Positions 2,319 to 50,708 of a stretch of DNA of 64,000 nucleotides are shown here, in pieces. The position numbers and the translations under genes were made by a program. Source of the stretch: a virus (taxonomy: Duplodnaviria > Caudoviricetes); the IMG/VR virus record IMGVR_UViG_3300027776_000009; one strand, 5' to 3'. Positions within the stretch are counted from its first letter, which is position 1; each line of letters starts with the position of its first letter. Below the pieces are notes generated by a model. That model made no database searches, was not told the DNA's origin, and saw only the letters and a program-made list of their open reading frames with translations.

Positions 2319-3053
2319 CTACATACGCAACAGGGATTCAATACCTTCCACCTTTTCACTGGGGTTAACCAGAGCCGACATCATCCCGTCGTCCATATAG
2401 GACCCTAGGAGTTTCGATACCGTGCTGGTGGCGCCATAGATGACGTTTCGGAACGCGATGTAGGCAGGCGGGACTTTCAGTGCGGCATCTTCGGTGAGCG
2501 TCTGGCGATAATAGATCGTGCGATCATCCCGGTGGCGCGCGATAGACCCCACGATCATTTCCAAGACAGCATTAGACGCATCCAGCCCCATCGCCGCATG
2601 CCGTTCCGAACTGATGAACAAGGTGCACATATCCTCGTACGAGAAGAATGCGGGAATATGTCCCTTAGCCACAAACTCATCGTACACCGGAAACACCAAA
2701 GTGTCATTCTTCACCAGATCCAAGTTACCGCAAATCTCAGCCCCCGGATCAAAGCTCAGCTCGTAGTAATCGTCTCCCTGAATCTTGATGATTGCCGTAG
2801 AGGAAGGGGTTACAGTCAGCATGGCAATCGCACTGGAGATACCGTACCGTGCCTGAGTTCCTTCCCCAACGACTATTGCGAAGATGCCAAGAATACGGAT
2901 CTCGTCACCCACTGTCATGAGCTTGTGCGTCTCATAACGACAAGGGACGTAGATACGGCACCCAGCCGTGGTAATCCATACCTTGCCGCCTTCAACCACC
3001 GGACACGCAGCGTTGATAGCCGCTGCATCACGCTTCAGCGCTGCAAAGTCCAT
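2319..3053 (-). CDS. conserved phiKZ-like protein (gp176-like by position)
   Basis: 244-aa ORF in the conserved block between the protease and the vRNAP beta gene. Confidence 0.7.
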   Translation of the reverse strand: MDFAALKRDAAAINAACPVVEGGKVWITTAGCRIYVPCRYETHKLMTVGDEIRILGIFAIVVGEGTQARYGISSAIAMLTVTPSSTAIIKIQGDDYYELSFDPGAEICGNLDLVKNDTLVFPVYDEFVAKGHIPAFFSYEDMCTLFISSERHAAMGLDASNAVLEMIVGSIARHRDDRTIYYRQTLTEDAALKVPPAYIAFRNVIYGATSTVSKLLGSYMDDGMMSALVNPSEKVEGIESLLRM

Positions 3054-16700: not shown

Positions 16701-16760
16701 ACCCCTCCAGCACCCGCCGCACCTTCTGGTAAACCTCCGGTGTCAATGTTGAAAGTGTAA
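10740..16760 (+). CDS. tape-measure/tail-associated lytic protein (phiKZ gp181-like) with C-terminal GH19 muramidase
   Basis: 2006 aa, long helical Lys/Ala/Gly-rich body. Near the C-terminus, GH19 motifs AMYLGQMHTESGGF, DGWKYRGRGPLQLTGKSNY, AAWYF and TKAINGG. Divergent from the vRNAP genes as in phiKZ. Confidence 0.88.
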   Translation: MANRDDIDLGDLPFDDFGDEGEGGFGGGPQNNKKRKPVEQLVGTLKTGLKANLSSPSFYGKLLKRALPKEYQTLLEAADTTADNLKELYNIAADEAKPIKDELKRGARIALPGAEKVLPKKLTEKLKKLVEKESSSWSGSYDAEGNEISAGLSGIFVAYQEAQQKKAEETRSEERVQNIAQNKLQQGQLSLLLGISNSINRMVSYQDQVTMAYQKKTLELQYKHYFATRKLVDLNQQQLGLHKSSYELIIKNTALPEAVKIQNSELMGQIMKERFLSRVSEPFSQFTANLLPKVMKTASGQIKGFAASLGTSLSQMIGGLEMAANMNNDPDVRQENTNEGIGELLRFALRGQTKKLQEFLKANPKIAKMGIKGTRMIRNAPDTVVGALRDPKRLEGTGKEVEKKMVEMRKQLYGLFGRQPPGQEIDPVTGEPTGLGSGKTGDAIDKMIEKIFKSVASDLGVPVRDSKVRKGNSDQMDKAAYWTFQADRTLVEVIPGWLGKIHQELAITRTGKADTPEMVYNHRTGKFVTVSDAGKAAVGNVFTKKDKEKIDKNMESVLEQIDPDKKLKAPARKALARYLLDRANNFQDMDLGTLAAGAERGYPEVLKRYRKEISKFLQKRFEYTPEGKEGESSAQAQTDLMHTEGRFERLREELPDFRQRMAGEAFQSNIRILEEQGLVVYDAETGTYNVNWNKAYDEIDGGLPKPGRRRTNPVPANPPPASRALGGPVRRSYAKGSNGPIRGPGTSTSDSIPVNVSDGETVVNTPGSRIPGAAALLRFLNTMGNKVRGVDSPGVGYGGNSSTSPDQAQQLQDAIDRLTEQNAEMSQTMASLLEVVQQIPNVPLQTVNVGEGLDPEDIIGGLSLSERISIKGVRGIRKAGSGLLKGGKKLMKWGSGRVRKGVTGAFGLIGSASTAAQTLGKKALSMAGFGLKKLQDVWIVGEEQPVLAAKDIRKGRYVDMLTKKVIEIPTDITGPVMDLETEELVITQADFDKGIYGKRSKKLLKRVLGAIGGLASLARKPFQALSKVLTKGKKLIGNVLRYGEIPHDIYVAGEEEPRIIARVMRQGGYRLKSTGKVVTKISQLTGAIIDEDNNTVLTVEDMKKGLVDSKGRPIKGLMSRIASGVAKVAAIPIQFGKAALKAAGTGADMLKKMLGGGLGMLKGLFSGAGVSLFGSTKPIVSKLDAIYNVLNDRLPASKKKSKSNDSDGDGLRDGSWQEQEQAREKAKKEGRFGKLLDALKSGKDKVKEKGASIFDSLKNMLPLLIGGVTTLFTKISGTVKLITSFLGKGSIKALMKTASVVKTGAKLLNSGVGKALTWGARALPFLASAGSAIATGAVAVLTSPVTLTVAAAAAVAYGGYKLYKYYNQPNTPIAKFRMAQYGFNSDDEKRVPKIIELEQALLKVVQVSASGPATLGKGVTMQTLLQIFGVNEKEPKQVEKWISWFTGRFKPVFLSHVTVYYNMTKKKDITQADKTLSTAQKLEYLPKINFPYSGSSPYLYMMSPFGDEDKVPLDDDDDVSDAYDSAISLIKRNAKANDEALASQKGGKGATGKVEKDTGGVWDSTKKAFGTAYDATKNALGTAASGFAAGGRMLMKGYNAAVDVTSTAIGDAAAANKAAGGGVGGAASAALAFGKSVSGQVASAVAKVDSNALYQNVLKYAKMAGVTTPAGLAMYLGQMHTESGGFKVVSENLNYKVDTLMKLFSRAKTAGRPAVEQVVKGGPPAIAEFLYGGRMGNDQPGDGWKYRGRGPLQLTGKSNYSMASKALGIDLVSNPDLVTDPDIGAKTAAWYFSTRVNANALNSGDLTKVTKAINGGTIGLDHRGEAYKAFLAKVNAGTLDSISNAPAKAGTAAKADEKAPPPPGGAAAVKTLAQSAKAPGTPTTTPTATPASSATPVATTVGSAAAKSPTSLPAPTTSPGTAQVAQAKQSEQQRGTASSGAVNMDAVANIMRDQLNVQKSMDAKLGNIDATLLRIEKSGPGGKAAGGTPPAPAAPSGKPPVSMLKV

Positions 16761-16810
16761 CGGCATAAGCACTCTCCCTCCTAGGGAAACCTAGGAGGGA
16801 GTTATGCTGT
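16761..16810 (+). terminator. TATG-flanked hairpin after the tape-measure gene
   Basis: CGGCATAA...CTCCCTCCTAGG-GAAA-CCTAGGAGGGAG-TTATGCTG; no U-tract. Confidence 0.7.
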
Positions 16811-16818
16811 TGGGTTTA

Positions 16819-16860
16819 GGACAAAAAAGAAGGGTGTTAACTCACCCTTCTTTTTTGTCC
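16819..16860. terminator. bidirectional intrinsic terminator
   Basis: Perfect 18-bp inverted repeat GGACAAAAAAGAAGGGTG-TTAACT-CACCCTTCTTTTTTGTCC with U-tracts in both directions. Confidence 0.85.
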
Positions 16861-17052
16861 TCAATTGAGGACAATGTGCACACCGTGGGACAGAACCCAC
16901 ACGGTGAGGACACTGGCCGCCGCACAGGCGACCATGAAAAGAGCGGCGCGGAAGCGCCCTTGATCCGGCTTAATTAATTGATCCATCAGCCATACAAGAA
17001 CCGGCCCGCACATAATAGCAAGGCCCATAACAACTGGAAATGAATTTGGCAC
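16861..17052 (-). CDS. small two-TM membrane protein
   Basis: 63 aa with two hydrophobic stretches. GTG start with AGGAGG Shine-Dalgarno, its own promoter motif and a structured leader. Confidence 0.7.
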   Translation of the reverse strand: MPNSFPVVMGLAIMCGPVLVWLMDQLIKPDQGRFRAALFMVACAAASVLTVWVLSHGVHIVLN

Positions 17053-17057
17053 GATAA

Positions 17058-17071
17058 GTCCTCCTACGGAC
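17058..17071 (-). promoter_or_regulatory. SD-containing hairpin element GUCC-GUAGGA-GGAC (copy 1)
   Basis: Exact 14-mer GTCCGTAGGAGGAC, 5 nt before the start codon. Also at 17631-17644 and 33052-33065. Confidence 0.75.
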
Positions 17072-17085
17072 TGTGGGGTATAAGG

Positions 17086-17190
17086 GGTGCAAGTATCTCG
17101 TTCGCGTGATTGGCTCTCAGTCGTTAGCTGAGTAACTGGTCACAGACCCTCTGTCGTTAGCAGATGAGTCCTAGCGATTGATAACACTTT
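17086..17190 (-). ncRNA. putative structured 5' leader/ncRNA with twin CUAACGA-loop hairpins
   Basis: GGACUC-A-UCUG[CUAACGA]CAGA-GGGUCU and GUU-A-CUCAG[CUAACGA]CUGAG-AGC, enclosed by UAUC/GAUA and UCGC/GCGA pairings. Lies between a promoter motif and the 63-aa gene. Confidence 0.6.
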
Positions 17191-17199
17191 GTCCTTATT

Positions 17200-17217
17200 G
17201 TAGTATGTATCTGAAAA
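17200..17217 (-). promoter_or_regulatory. putative early promoter
   Basis: Minus strand TTTTCAGATACATACTAC, a member of the repeated motif family. Confidence 0.7.
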
Positions 17218-17230
17218 AAAGTGGATTCAG

Positions 17231-17260
17231 GCAAAAAGAAAAGGGAGCCCGAAGGCTCCC
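17231..17260 (-). terminator. intrinsic terminator
   Basis: GGGAGCC-TTCG-GGCTCCC followed by TTTTCTTTTTG on the minus strand. Confidence 0.85.
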
Positions 17261-17264
17261 GTGA

Positions 17265-17624
17265 TTAGTCGAGACCAAGATGCTTCTTGATCTCGGTAAA
17301 CCGCTTGCGCATCCATCGTGGGGCAGTCCCTTTAAGGACCTGTTCCATGACAATCGGCAGGGGAAAGTAGTGGACGTTTGGTGCGGCTCCTGTCCGCACT
17401 AAAGCGTAATAGGAGTGCATGAAACGTGTGGGTGGGGTTTCAGATTCAATAGCTTGTTTAATCTCCTCAAGACACACGTCATGAGGATCCCCATAATGCA
17501 GTGTAGCAGTACTCAGGTCGTCCTCGTACTGAGGAGCACCCGCTGCAAACAGGGGTCCGCTGCCGGAGTGGGTGACGGTGAAGGCGGTTTCACCTTCGGT
17601 ATACGTAGTTGTGAAAGTTGTCAT
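17265..17624 (-). CDS. hypothetical early protein
   Basis: 119 aa, AGGAGG Shine-Dalgarno. Monocistronic between a promoter motif and a terminator. Confidence 0.8.
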   Translation of the reverse strand: MTTFTTTYTEGETAFTVTHSGSGPLFAAGAPQYEDDLSTATLHYGDPHDVCLEEIKQAIESETPPTRFMHSYYALVRTGAAPNVHYFPLPIVMEQVLKGTAPRWMRKRFTEIKKHLGLD

Positions 17625-17630
17625 AGCGAT

Positions 17631-17644
17631 GTCCTCCTACGGAC
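17631..17644 (-). promoter_or_regulatory. SD-containing hairpin element (copy 2)
   Basis: Exact GTCCGTAGGAGGAC, 6 nt before ATG. Confidence 0.75.
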
Positions 17645-17677
17645 TTGGTTTAGGCGTCGGATGATTCCGACTCTCTA

Positions 17678-17699
17678 CTTAAGTGATATGTATCTGAAA
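17678..17699 (-). promoter_or_regulatory. putative early promoter
   Basis: Minus strand TTTCAGATACATATCACTTAAG; 21/22 identical to 33096-33117. Confidence 0.75.
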
Positions 17700-17758
17700 G
17701 AAATTGGACTTTACGGCGTCATTTATGAATCCAGAACAAGACATTCGGAGAGAAGACC

Positions 17759-33051: not shown

Positions 33052-33065
33052 GTCCTCCTACGGAC
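33052..33065 (-). promoter_or_regulatory. SD-containing hairpin element (copy 3)
   Basis: Exact GTCCGTAGGAGGAC, 5 nt before ATG. Confidence 0.75.
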
Positions 33066-33095: not shown

Positions 33096-33117
33096 CTTAA
33101 GTGATATATATCTGAAA
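33096..33117 (-). promoter_or_regulatory. putative early promoter
   Basis: Minus strand TTTCAGATATATATCACTTAAG. Confidence 0.75.
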
Positions 33118-49787: not shown

Positions 49788-50708
49788 TTAGATGCTCACG
49801 CCAAACAGCGGTTCAGAAGTCCCAACATCGATCGGAACACTGAGCCCACCCAGGAATGCTTGAAGCGGGTAAATCGTGGTAATGTGTGCTGCAATCTGTA
49901 CACCGGCGGCTTCGTAATACGTATCCGGAGTGACGGGGGTAGTCACCTGCGGAGCACCGATATCGTTGGGGTACTTATCTGTCACCGCTTTCTCAACCCC
50001 GGTGCAGAGTCCCATTTCGGAGATGACTGCGTAATTGGCGTCTCCGTAAAACAACGTCACAGCATCGATGATTGCTTGGACTTCAGCAGGGGTAAAGGAT
50101 ACGGTCATGACAGCAGAAACCCGCATGTAGCTACCGTCGTTAGTGGTTCCGATATCGGGCAATGCCGGACGACGGTCGTTTACAGTCGGTGCAAACGGCG
50201 TAGTAACAGAAACTCCACCCGTGACCGTTGTCAGTGTGGTTTCTACAGCGATGGTGCCTGTATCGATGACTCGACCGAAATAGACGGCGTATAGTACACC
50301 GTCCCGATACAAGGTCTTCCGCAGACGGTACTTTTCCCGTTCCAAAGAGGTGAGATCCGAAGTTACCGGCCGGGCAATAAACGGAATCATCCCATAGAGA
50401 CCAGAATGCCTGGCTTTATGCGGCAAGGTATCCTGAGTGGGGGGTGAACCCACGGGTCCTGTAACGTTGTAGTGCGCTTTGTTACCAATAACCAGATAAC
50501 GGGTTGTCAGAAACTGGGTGTCGTCAGCGGGATTGTAATCCGCAAAGACTTCCATTCCAGCGGTGACTGGTGAAGGTTGGTACGGAACCGCCAGAGGGTC
50601 GTTCAACGCTTCTGCTACCGAAGCATTCGTGGGGATGTCGTGATTCAGTTTCAGCAGCAGTGCGGTTTGCACTTGGCTTCCGTAGACGGAACGGGTAATG
50701 GTTTGCAT
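49788..50708 (-). CDS. virion structural protein (baseplate, phiKZ gp139-like)
   Basis: 306 aa. YLVIGN, H......LY..IPF..R....DL...ER.KYRLR and AVISE.GLC.G. Confidence 0.65.
   Translation of the reverse strand: MQTITRSVYGSQVQTALLLKLNHDIPTNASVAEALNDPLAVPYQPSPVTAGMEVFADYNPADDTQFLTTRYLVIGNKAHYNVTGPVGSPPTQDTLPHKARHSGLYGMIPFIARPVTSDLTSLEREKYRLRKTLYRDGVLYAVYFGRVIDTGTIAVETTLTTVTGGVSVTTPFAPTVNDRRPALPDIGTTNDGSYMRVSAVMTVSFTPAEVQAIIDAVTLFYGDANYAVISEMGLCTGVEKAVTDKYPNDIGAPQVTTPVTPDTYYEAAGVQIAAHITTIYPLQAFLGGLSVPIDVGTSEPLFGVSI

What the first reader, a model, noticed from the sequence alone, without database searches (positions are those of the whole stretch)
17086..17190. Structured leader RNA with two hairpins sharing loop CUAACGA and a bulged A
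Seen (minus strand, between the promoter motif at 17200 and the 63-aa membrane gene): arm 1 is GGACUC-A-UCUG[CUAACGA]CAGA-GGGUCU; arm 2 is GUGA..GUU-A-CUCAG[CUAACGA]CUGAG-AGC..UCAC. An outer stem UAUC-AA-UCGC / GCGA-ACGA-GAUA closes both. The stems differ in sequence but keep pairing, while the 9-mer GCUAACGAC and the 5' bulged A are kept. This internal covariation is what a duplicated binding site looks like. Related leaders here (17624, 33046) are only about 50 nt, so this ~105-nt element is an addition. Inference: a bivalent protein-binding RNA (operator, antiterminator site, or a decoy for a dimeric host or defence protein) made immediately after infection. I do not recognise it as a known family.
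Basis: partly seen in the sequence, partly recalled or inferred. Interest (0 to 1): 0.78.

Follow-up and report, generated by a model that had tools for sequence, protein, structure and literature searches.

The report
Twin-hairpin leader RNA of jumbo phages
About 100 nt ahead of a small phage membrane-protein gene fold into two hairpins with identical loops; nine related phage sequences keep this fold through compensating mutations, so it is a real, undescribed RNA element whose binding partner is unknown.

Summary
On the minus strand, 17191-17089 folds into an outer stem enclosing two adjacent hairpins. Each hairpin has a 7-nt loop CUAACGA, a closing G-C pair and a 5' bulged A.

The window comes from an uncultured phiKZ-like (nucleus-forming type) jumbo phage. 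I recovered eight further variants of the element from metagenome contigs. In the nine-sequence alignment, 96% of cells pair and 9 of 32 pairs show compensatory double changes. No shuffle out of 500 reached the observed covariation score.

Both loops, both bulged A's and two U.G wobbles never change. The neighbouring coding DNA is only 40-77% identical. No Rfam family matches the element.

It always sits 16-40 nt upstream of a Shine-Dalgarno hairpin. It precedes unrelated genes: a 58-63-aa two-helix membrane protein in most phages, and a 96-aa protein with no membrane-like sequence in one. In that one case it lies inside an operon rather than just after a promoter.

My best reading (about 45%) is a modular cis-acting operator with two equivalent sites for a dimeric, sequence-specific RNA-binding factor. 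Expression, timing and the partner are untested. Other notes of this scan describe the same stretch of the same genome (e1-5751133).

The parts
17232..17260 (-). Intrinsic terminator of the upstream 119-aa gene (GC hairpin plus U-tract)
   Evidence: Read. Nearly invariant in homologues, with compensating changes in its stem.
17200..17220 (-). Promoter-like motif: a T-run followed by an AT-rich block (TCAGATACATA core)
   Evidence: The core occurs exactly at 17204 and 17687, and with one mismatch at 33105 and 33424, all on the minus strand before genes. It is conserved in L055, L056, L062, L069 and L071. The architecture resembles phiKZ early promoters (T-rich upstream, AT-rich block near -10; PMC7598289, PMC8244752). 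Its activity is inferred.
17089..17191 (-). Whole structured element: an outer stem (17191-17180 with 17099-17089) enclosing hairpin 1 and hairpin 2
   Evidence: RNAfold and the RNAalifold consensus. Covariance model R1 scores it at 127 bits. Outer stem: 87% of cells paired, 3 pairs with compensatory changes. The same three-way shape appears in L072 with a different outer-stem sequence.
17144..17171 (-). Hairpin 1: 6-bp lower stem, bulged A (17165), 4-bp upper stem, loop CUAACGA (17160-17154)
   Evidence: 98.9% of cells paired in 9 variants. One lower-stem pair is A-U, U-A or G-C. The upper stem, the loop, the bulged A and a U.G wobble are invariant.
17106..17143 (-). Hairpin 2: 4-bp basal stem, internal loop, 3 bp, bulged A (17133), 5-bp upper stem, loop CUAACGA (17127-17121)
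   Evidence: 100% of cells paired. The basal stem has four different sequences that all pair. The upper stem has two covarying pairs. The loop, the bulged A and a U.G wobble are invariant.
17072..17088 (-). Variable A/C-rich spacer between the element and the ribosome-binding hairpin
   Evidence: Poorly conserved in sequence and length, 16 to about 40 nt.
17058..17071 (-). Shine-Dalgarno hairpin (4-bp stem, hexaloop carrying the AGGA core)
   Evidence: The exact 14-mer occurs 3 times in the window, against 0.5 expected. It follows the element in all homologues with downstream DNA, with a covarying stem in L062.
16861..17052 (-). 63-aa gene for a small protein with two hydrophobic helices (GTG start)
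   Evidence: ORF. Homologous 58-63-aa proteins follow the element in L055, L062, L069 and L074, at about 50% identity. No significant Pfam or PHROG family.
16823..16858 (-). Bidirectional intrinsic terminator ending the cassette
   Evidence: Read: a hairpin flanked by an A-run and a T-run. It is conserved with compensating stem changes in L055.

Best explanation
The element is a conserved, modular, cis-acting RNA structure carried in the mRNA ahead of small accessory genes in one lineage of phiKZ-like jumbo phages.

Shown:
- Two adjacent hairpins are kept by selection, usually closed by an outer stem.
- Their identical 7-nt loops, closing G-C pairs, 5' bulged A's and U.G wobbles are invariant while the stem sequences change in a compensating way.

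Inferred:
- The two hairpins are equivalent docking sites for one sequence- and shape-specific RNA-binding factor, most simply a homodimer of phage or host origin.
- Binding sets the translation or stability of the gene downstream.
- That gene's Shine-Dalgarno sequence sits in its own hairpin 16-40 nt further on.
- In the window the transcript probably starts at a phiKZ-type early promoter about 5-10 nt before the outer stem.
For: Structure:
- RNAfold gives the described fold.
- The nine distinct variants are the window, L055, L056, L062, L066, L069, L071, L072 and L074.
- In them 96% of cells pair, against 28-53% when the partners are slid.
- 9 of 32 pairs have changes on both sides.
- The covariation score is 0.217 against 0.086 in shuffles, reached by 0 of 500 shuffles.

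Selection:
- The element is 87-100% identical between the window and L055, where flanking coding DNA is 40-77% identical.
- A stretch of the upstream gene that is identical in protein is only 70-80% identical in DNA. The conservation is therefore not recent transfer.

Strand: the conserved G.U and U.G pairs exist only in the minus-strand RNA. The element lies in mRNA sense between a promoter motif and a ribosome-binding site.

Specific recognition: the loops, bulges and wobbles are invariant in both hairpins in all nine variants, while the junction nucleotides and spacer vary.

Modularity: the same element plus the same Shine-Dalgarno hairpin precedes an unrelated 96-aa protein in L072, directly after another gene's stop codon. 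In L056 it sits next to the gp182-like gene.
Against: - No binding protein has been identified.
- The bulged A lies 4 bp from the loop in hairpin 1 and 5 bp in hairpin 2, so the two sites are not strictly equivalent.
- With no linker between them, the hairpins may stack end to end, which would put the loops far apart.
- The element is 16-40 nt from the Shine-Dalgarno hairpin, so direct occlusion of the ribosome site is not evident.
- Only nine variants from one narrow lineage were found. Several share haplotypes, so the independent substitution events are fewer than the counted cells.
Confidence: 0.45

Rival explanations
1. A purely structural element with no dedicated partner. It would be a stable fold that protects the mRNA from 5'-end-dependent decay, or that serves as a processing site for host RNase III or RNase E. 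In an operon it would insulate the downstream cistron.
For: The sister leaders at 17624 and 33046 also carry a simple hairpin soon after the promoter motif, suggesting a general use of leader hairpins. The outer stem begins a few nucleotides after the inferred start. In L072 the element lies between two cistrons, where phage processing sites often lie.
Against: A stabilising fold needs pairing, not sequence. Yet 14 loop nucleotides, two bulged A's and two wobble pairs are invariant in all nine variants while the stems change. Neither hairpin offers the roughly 20 bp of regular duplex typical of RNase III sites (established knowledge). The outer stem is the least conserved helix, with 87% of cells paired.
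Confidence: 0.2
2. A trans-acting RNA rather than a regulator of its own gene. It would be a decoy or sponge that titrates a dimeric host or defence protein, for example by mimicking a tRNA anticodon arm. Alternatively it would be a small RNA processed from the leader.
For: The element is far more conserved than the proteins it precedes and precedes unrelated genes, as if the RNA were the selected product. The loop has the generic anticodon-loop signature: pyrimidine, U, three bases, purine, A. In hairpin 2 it sits on a 5-bp stem (sequence reading plus textbook tRNA knowledge). The surrounding cassettes are accessory insertions absent from relatives.
Against: - No terminator or obvious processing signal separates the element from the open reading frame.
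- It is always coupled to a Shine-Dalgarno hairpin and a gene.
- The would-be anticodon AAC is not a normal bacterial anticodon (knowledge).
- ARAGORN finds no tRNA-like gene in the window.
- The exact hairpin-1 18-mer is absent from the representative genomes of 185,579 species.
- No second copy occurs in the window or in any fetched locus.
Confidence: 0.15
3. A ligand-sensing or tertiary-folded RNA (riboswitch-like three-way junction) in which the conserved loops and bulges make intramolecular contacts or bind a small molecule.
For: The three-way-junction shape with two hairpins and 7-nt loops resembles the outline of the purine riboswitch. Conserved bulged A's and wobble pairs are common tertiary-contact elements (knowledge).
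Against: The junction strands vary in sequence among the nine variants, so there is no conserved junction pocket. The two loops are identical and cannot form Watson-Crick loop-loop pairs. No expression platform (terminator or anti-Shine-Dalgarno alternative) is conserved, and an alternative 5' hairpin has no covariation support. No Rfam riboswitch matches.
Confidence: 0.07
4. A DNA-level signal: two palindromic operator sites for a DNA-binding repressor just downstream of the promoter.
For: Each hairpin is an inverted repeat in the DNA, located 30-80 bp downstream of a promoter-like motif.
Against: A dimeric DNA binder reads the symmetric half-sites. Here the half-sites vary and covary, and the asymmetric 7-bp centre is invariant. 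Conserved G.U and U.G pairs and asymmetric bulges have no meaning in duplex DNA. The L072 copy has no promoter motif upstream.
Confidence: 0.03

Closest known systems
E. coli thrS translational operator (two anticodon-arm-like hairpins bound by the ThrRS homodimer)
   Same: An mRNA leader with two hairpins that present the same recognition loop on different stems. A symmetric dimer binds them and controls translation of the downstream gene. The loop here also has a generic anticodon-loop outline.
   Different: The loops do not carry a threonine anticodon. The downstream genes are small accessory phage genes, not a synthetase. The nearer hairpin is 30-60 nt from the Shine-Dalgarno sequence rather than abutting it. 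No partner is known.
Coat-protein operator hairpins of RNA phages MS2 and PP7
   Same: A hairpin with a 5' bulged A a few base pairs below a sequence-specific loop. The stem sequence is free to covary. The binder is a protein dimer that represses translation.
   Different: Those are single hairpins that contain the replicase start codon, with 4- or 6-nt loops of different sequence. Here there are two hairpins with 7-nt loops, far from the start codon, in a dsDNA jumbo phage that has no such coat protein.
HK022 put RNAs and lambda nut/boxB sites
   Same: Phage-encoded stem-loop RNAs, two stem-loops in put, located just downstream of early promoters or between genes and acting in cis.
   Different: Those act on host RNA polymerase to suppress terminators. 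Here the element-bearing genes whose 3' ends could be read are each followed by their own strong terminator, with convergent genes beyond it in the window (gp181-like) and in L072. boxB loops are 5 nt and come with a boxA sequence, which is absent here.
CsrA/RsmA dual-site targets
   Same: A homodimer bridges two hairpin-loop motifs 10-60 nt apart in a leader, one of them often at the Shine-Dalgarno sequence.
   Different: CsrA needs GGA in the loop, and the twin loops lack it. Only the separate Shine-Dalgarno hairpin carries GGA.
Purine-riboswitch-type three-way junctions
   Same: An outer stem plus two hairpins with 7-nt loops.
   Different: The junction nucleotides are not conserved, the loops are identical rather than complementary, there is no conserved expression platform, and there is no Rfam match.

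Membership tests
Any Rfam 15 family | A covariance-model match at or near the gathering score | tested here: not met
   No match overlaps the element even at E up to 10, in the window, in L066/L069/L071/L074 or in L072.
thrS-type operator (anticodon-arm mimicry) | Loops carry the cognate tRNA anticodon, and the leader precedes the synthetase gene | tested here: not met
   The central loop triplet is AAC. The downstream genes are a 58-63-aa membrane protein or a 96-aa protein with no family.
thrS-type operator (anticodon-arm mimicry) | Two hairpins with the same loop on different stems in one leader | tested here: met
MS2/PP7 coat-protein operator | A single hairpin enclosing the start codon, with a 4- or 6-nt loop of defined sequence and a bulged A at fixed distance | tested here: not met
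   The loops are 7 nt and the start codon is 54-90 nt downstream of the hairpins. The bulge lies 4 bp from the loop in hairpin 1 and 5 bp in hairpin 2.
Processive antitermination RNAs (put, nut) | Located upstream of terminators that must be read through to reach downstream genes | tested here: not met
   In the window, the terminator at 16823-16858 is followed by the convergent gp181-like gene. In L072, the 96-aa gene ends in its own terminator before a convergent gene.
CsrA/RsmA binding site | A GGA motif in the hairpin loop | tested here: not met
   The twin loops read CUAACGA in all nine variants.
Type III antitoxin or CRISPR-repeat mimic (RNA anti-CRISPR) | Near-identical direct repeat units whose stems are conserved in sequence, next to a toxin gene or matching a host repeat | tested here: inconclusive
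   The two units share only the 9-mer and about 46% of their flanking positions by eye. The stems differ and covary, and no ToxN-like gene is adjacent. The host and its CRISPR repeats are unknown, so repeat mimicry cannot be fully excluded.
Riboswitch-like three-way junction | Conserved junction nucleotides forming a pocket, plus an alternative expression-platform fold | tested here: not met
   The junction columns vary. The alternative 5' hairpin pairs in 72% of cells, no better than shuffles.
phiKZ-type early transcription unit | A T-rich tract and an AT-rich conserved block centred near -10 of a mapped early start site | tested here: inconclusive
   The motif is present and conserved, and its architecture matches the descriptions in PMC7598289 and PMC8244752. 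No start-site or timing data exist for this phage.

The most novel reading that the evidence does not exclude
The twin hairpins are anticodon-arm mimics: a 7-nt loop with pyrimidine-U at its start and purine-A at its end, on a 5-bp stem in hairpin 2. A nucleus-forming jumbo phage would display them in tandem to capture a dimeric tRNA-binding host protein, such as a class II synthetase, a tRNA-modifying enzyme or an anticodon nuclease of a defence system. The purpose would be either to regulate the downstream gene or to disarm that protein.
Probability: 0.1. Interest if true: 0.85.

Novelty: new variant of a known kind. Interest (0 to 1): 0.55.

Why it matters
Post-transcriptional control in nucleus-forming jumbo phages is almost unexplored. 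Their mRNAs are made by phage polymerases inside a protein shell and translated outside it, and few cis-acting RNA signals have been described.

This element is a covariation-supported RNA family with two invariant recognition loops. It is portable between unrelated accessory genes and is coupled to a shared Shine-Dalgarno hairpin. It therefore points to an unidentified sequence-specific RNA-binding factor and to a small translational regulon.

If the partner is a host or defence protein, the element would be an RNA-based takeover or counter-defence device. If it is a phage protein, the pair would be a compact orthogonal RNA-protein tool.

The limits are real. The phage is uncultured, its host is unknown, and the family is so far confined to a narrow lineage.

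Tried and rejected
- **Whole genome:** none is held for this window, so other copies outside the 64 kb could not be sought.
- **Named phages:** DNA similarity gave no match. Model R1 found nothing in phiKZ, 201phi2-1, RTH11, FLC9 or pEa_SNUABM_54. That search had no positive control in that route.
- **IMG/VR scans:** the twin 9-mer pattern returned 54 loci. All were coding or tandem direct repeats, none hairpins. The hairpin-1 18-mer and a degenerate hairpin-2 pattern returned nothing.
- **Species genomes:** no hit for the twin pattern or for the 18-mer.
- **Homologue searches:** a search with the 63-aa protein found only itself. A related-loci search with the gp182-like protein and with the L072 96-aa protein in IMG/VR found nothing.
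- **Candidate binder:** I considered the upstream 119-aa protein because of its invariant basic C-terminal helix. It has no Pfam or PHROG family. The AlphaFold model was poor (pLDDT 63), so I ran no fold search. The Atlas gave nothing. The element also occurs without this gene (L056, L072), so the link stays a weak lead.
- **Strand by energy:** comparing sense and antisense minimum free energies was not decisive. The strand assignment rests on the wobble pairs and the gene context.
- **Switch idea:** an alternative 5' hairpin has no covariation support.
- **Trans target:** a search for a complementary loop found one hairpin at 50133-50147 (+), which is compatible with chance.
- **Literature:** full-text search for the loop sequence and for jumbo-phage structured leaders found nothing relevant.
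- **Larger contigs:** scanning the whole contigs behind the Logan, ENA and JGI loci was not possible.

Full report
**What the window is.** The 64-kb window encodes:
- a 1409-aa phage multisubunit RNA-polymerase beta-like protein (phrog_3148);
- a 2006-aa tail lysin like phiKZ gp181;
- a 740-aa protein like phiKZ gp182.

The gp182-like protein is at most 38% identical to any named phage. The hits are phiKZ, 201phi2-1, PhiPA3 and Xanthomonas, Burkholderia and Erwinia jumbo phages. The source is therefore an uncultured phiKZ-like jumbo phage with about 51% G+C. No whole genome is held for it. Related contigs come from sewage and activated-sludge type metagenomes.

**Check of the observation.** On the minus strand the layout reads as follows:
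- the 119-aa gene (17624-17265) and its terminator;
- a promoter-like motif (17220-17200);
- the structured region;
- an A/C-rich spacer;
- the 14-nt Shine-Dalgarno hairpin (17071-17058);
- a GTG-initiated 63-aa gene (17052-16861) for a protein with two hydrophobic helices;
- a bidirectional terminator.

The energy is -31.2 kcal/mol, z = -2.9, and 1 of 200 shuffles is as stable. A longer construct folds the same way. The loop plus its closing pair, a 9-mer, occurs exactly twice in the window on both strands, 33 nt apart.

Within the window alone this is suggestive but not overwhelming. A loose version of the pattern arose in 8 of 60 simulated windows.

**Relatives.** Homologues of the gp182-like protein led to a 91% relative (L055) with the same two reverse-strand cassettes. 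They also led to 55% relatives (L059, L060) in which the gp181-like and gp182-like genes are simply adjacent. The same adjacency holds in phiKZ, 201phi2-1, RTH11, FLC9 and pEa_SNUABM_54. The cassettes are therefore an insertion specific to this lineage.

Further variants came from three routes:
- Homologues of the 119-aa protein gave L062, L066, L069, L071 and partial copies.
- A pattern scan of JGI metagenomes gave L072 and L074.
- A covariance model built from these (R1) picked up L056, an 81% relative.

R1 found no second copy in the window or in any other fetched locus at E up to 10.

**Evidence that the fold is selected.** In the nine-sequence alignment (A5):
- 96.0% of cells form standard pairs, against 28-53% when the partners are slid by 1-3 columns.
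- 9 of 32 pairs carry changes on both sides.
- The covariation score is 0.217 against 0.086 ± 0.014 for shuffles, and 0 of 500 shuffles reach it.
- Hairpin 1 is 98.9% paired and hairpin 2 is 100% paired.
- The basal stem of hairpin 2 has four different sequences, all of which pair.
- One outer-stem pair runs through A-U, G.U and G-C.

L072 folds into the same three-way shape with a completely different outer stem.

Between the window and L055 the promoter and element are 87-100% identical. The 63-aa gene is about 50% identical in protein. The part of the 119-aa gene that is identical in protein is only 70-80% identical in DNA. The conservation is therefore purifying selection on the nucleotides, not recent exchange.

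The conserved G.U and U.G pairs exist only in the minus-strand RNA.

**What is invariant and what is not.** All nine variants keep:
- both loops and the closing G-C pairs;
- both 5' bulged A's;
- a U.G wobble at the second pair below each bulge;
- the whole upper half of hairpin 1.

The junction strands, the spacer and the outer stem vary. This argues for recognition of the hairpins themselves by sequence and shape. It argues against a junction ligand pocket and against a role that needs only stability.

One caveat concerns equivalence: the bulge lies 4 bp from the loop in hairpin 1 and 5 bp in hairpin 2.

**Context tells function class.**
- The element is always followed, 16 to about 40 nt later, by a Shine-Dalgarno hairpin and a start codon.
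- In most variants the gene is the small membrane protein.
- In L072 the gene is an unrelated 96-aa protein, apparently soluble by sequence. There the element starts about 25 nt after the stop codon of another gene, with no promoter motif or terminator between them. L072 is a jumbo-phage contig judged by its PHROG families.
- In L056 the element follows the promoter motif directly beside the gp182-like gene.
- Each element-bearing gene whose 3' end is held (window, L055, L072) ends in its own terminator. This makes antitermination unlikely.
- Autoregulation by the downstream protein is unlikely because the proteins differ.

The element thus behaves as a portable cis module placed ahead of accessory genes.

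**Promoter and timing.** The motif is a T-run followed by an AT-rich block. It recurs at 17687, 33105 and 33424 and is conserved in relatives.

Reviews and dRNA-seq of phiKZ describe early promoters as a conserved AT-rich block near -10 with a T-rich tract upstream. They give typical 5' UTRs of 31-40 nt (PMC7598289; PMC8244752). Early expression from a virion-polymerase promoter, and an unusually long leader of about 140 nt, are therefore reasonable inferences. I could not test either.

**Comparison with known systems.** No Rfam family matches any variant, and full-text searches found no description.
- The closest working analogy is the thrS operator, in which two anticodon-arm-like hairpins bind the ThrRS dimer.
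- Single-hairpin analogies are the MS2 and PP7 operators, which have a bulged A, a specific loop and a free stem.
- The CsrA, nut/put, riboswitch and repeat-mimic models each fail at least one defining feature (see the membership table).
- The loop has the generic anticodon-loop outline. This keeps an anticodon-arm-mimic reading open at low probability.

**Verdict.** The element is a real, previously undescribed structured RNA family restricted, so far, to one lineage of uncultured phiKZ-like phages. The fold and its selection are shown. The mechanism, a two-site operator for a dimeric RNA-binding factor that controls translation or stability, is inferred at about 45%. The rivals are a purely structural or processing role (about 20%), a trans-acting decoy or small RNA (about 15%), a ligand or tertiary RNA (about 7%) and a DNA operator (about 3%).

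Noticed in passing
window 17058-17071, 17631-17644, 33052-33065 (-); L062 just before the 58-aa gene (starts 3580, +); L072 ~2775-2790 (-): The Shine-Dalgarno hairpin (4-bp stem, hexaloop with the AGGA core) is identical before three window genes. It covaries between phages: the stems are GUCC/GGAC, GGUC/GACC and GUUC/GAAC. This suggests a shared translational-control hairpin on accessory genes.
   Followed up: partly
window 16761-17758: Two reverse-strand cassettes are inserted between the gp181-like and gp182-like virion genes: the 119-aa gene, and the twin-hairpin leader plus the 63-aa gene. These two virion genes are adjacent in phiKZ, 201phi2-1, RTH11, FLC9, pEa_SNUABM_54 and the 55% relatives L059 and L060.
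   Followed up: yes
window 17265-17624 (-): The 119-aa protein has no family. Its C-terminal 45 residues, including a basic helix, are invariant in 7 homologues while the N-terminal half diverges. Every homologue with downstream DNA is followed by the twin-hairpin leader. The AlphaFold model had low confidence (pLDDT 63).
   Followed up: partly
window 50133-50147 (+): A small hairpin has a 7-nt loop exactly complementary to the twin loops. It lies antisense inside a minus-strand ORF. About 0.15 such hairpins are expected per window by chance.
   Followed up: no
window 16760-16806: After the gp181-like stop there is a GC-rich hairpin without a U-tract, followed on the minus strand by a TATGCCG-type motif. 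phiKZ late promoters centre on TATG. The same pattern is reported elsewhere in this genome by other notes of the scan.
   Followed up: no
L023, L027, L049 (IMGVR_UViG_2974549713_000001, 589 kb): A very large viral contig carries several arrays of 37-48-nt direct repeats that begin with the same 9-mer as the twin loops. They are direct repeats, not hairpins, and are unrelated to this element.
   Followed up: no
L055, L071 (5' part of the element): In these two variants the minimum-energy fold replaces the outer stem with a 5'-terminal hairpin. That hairpin has no covariation support across the nine sequences.
   Followed up: yes
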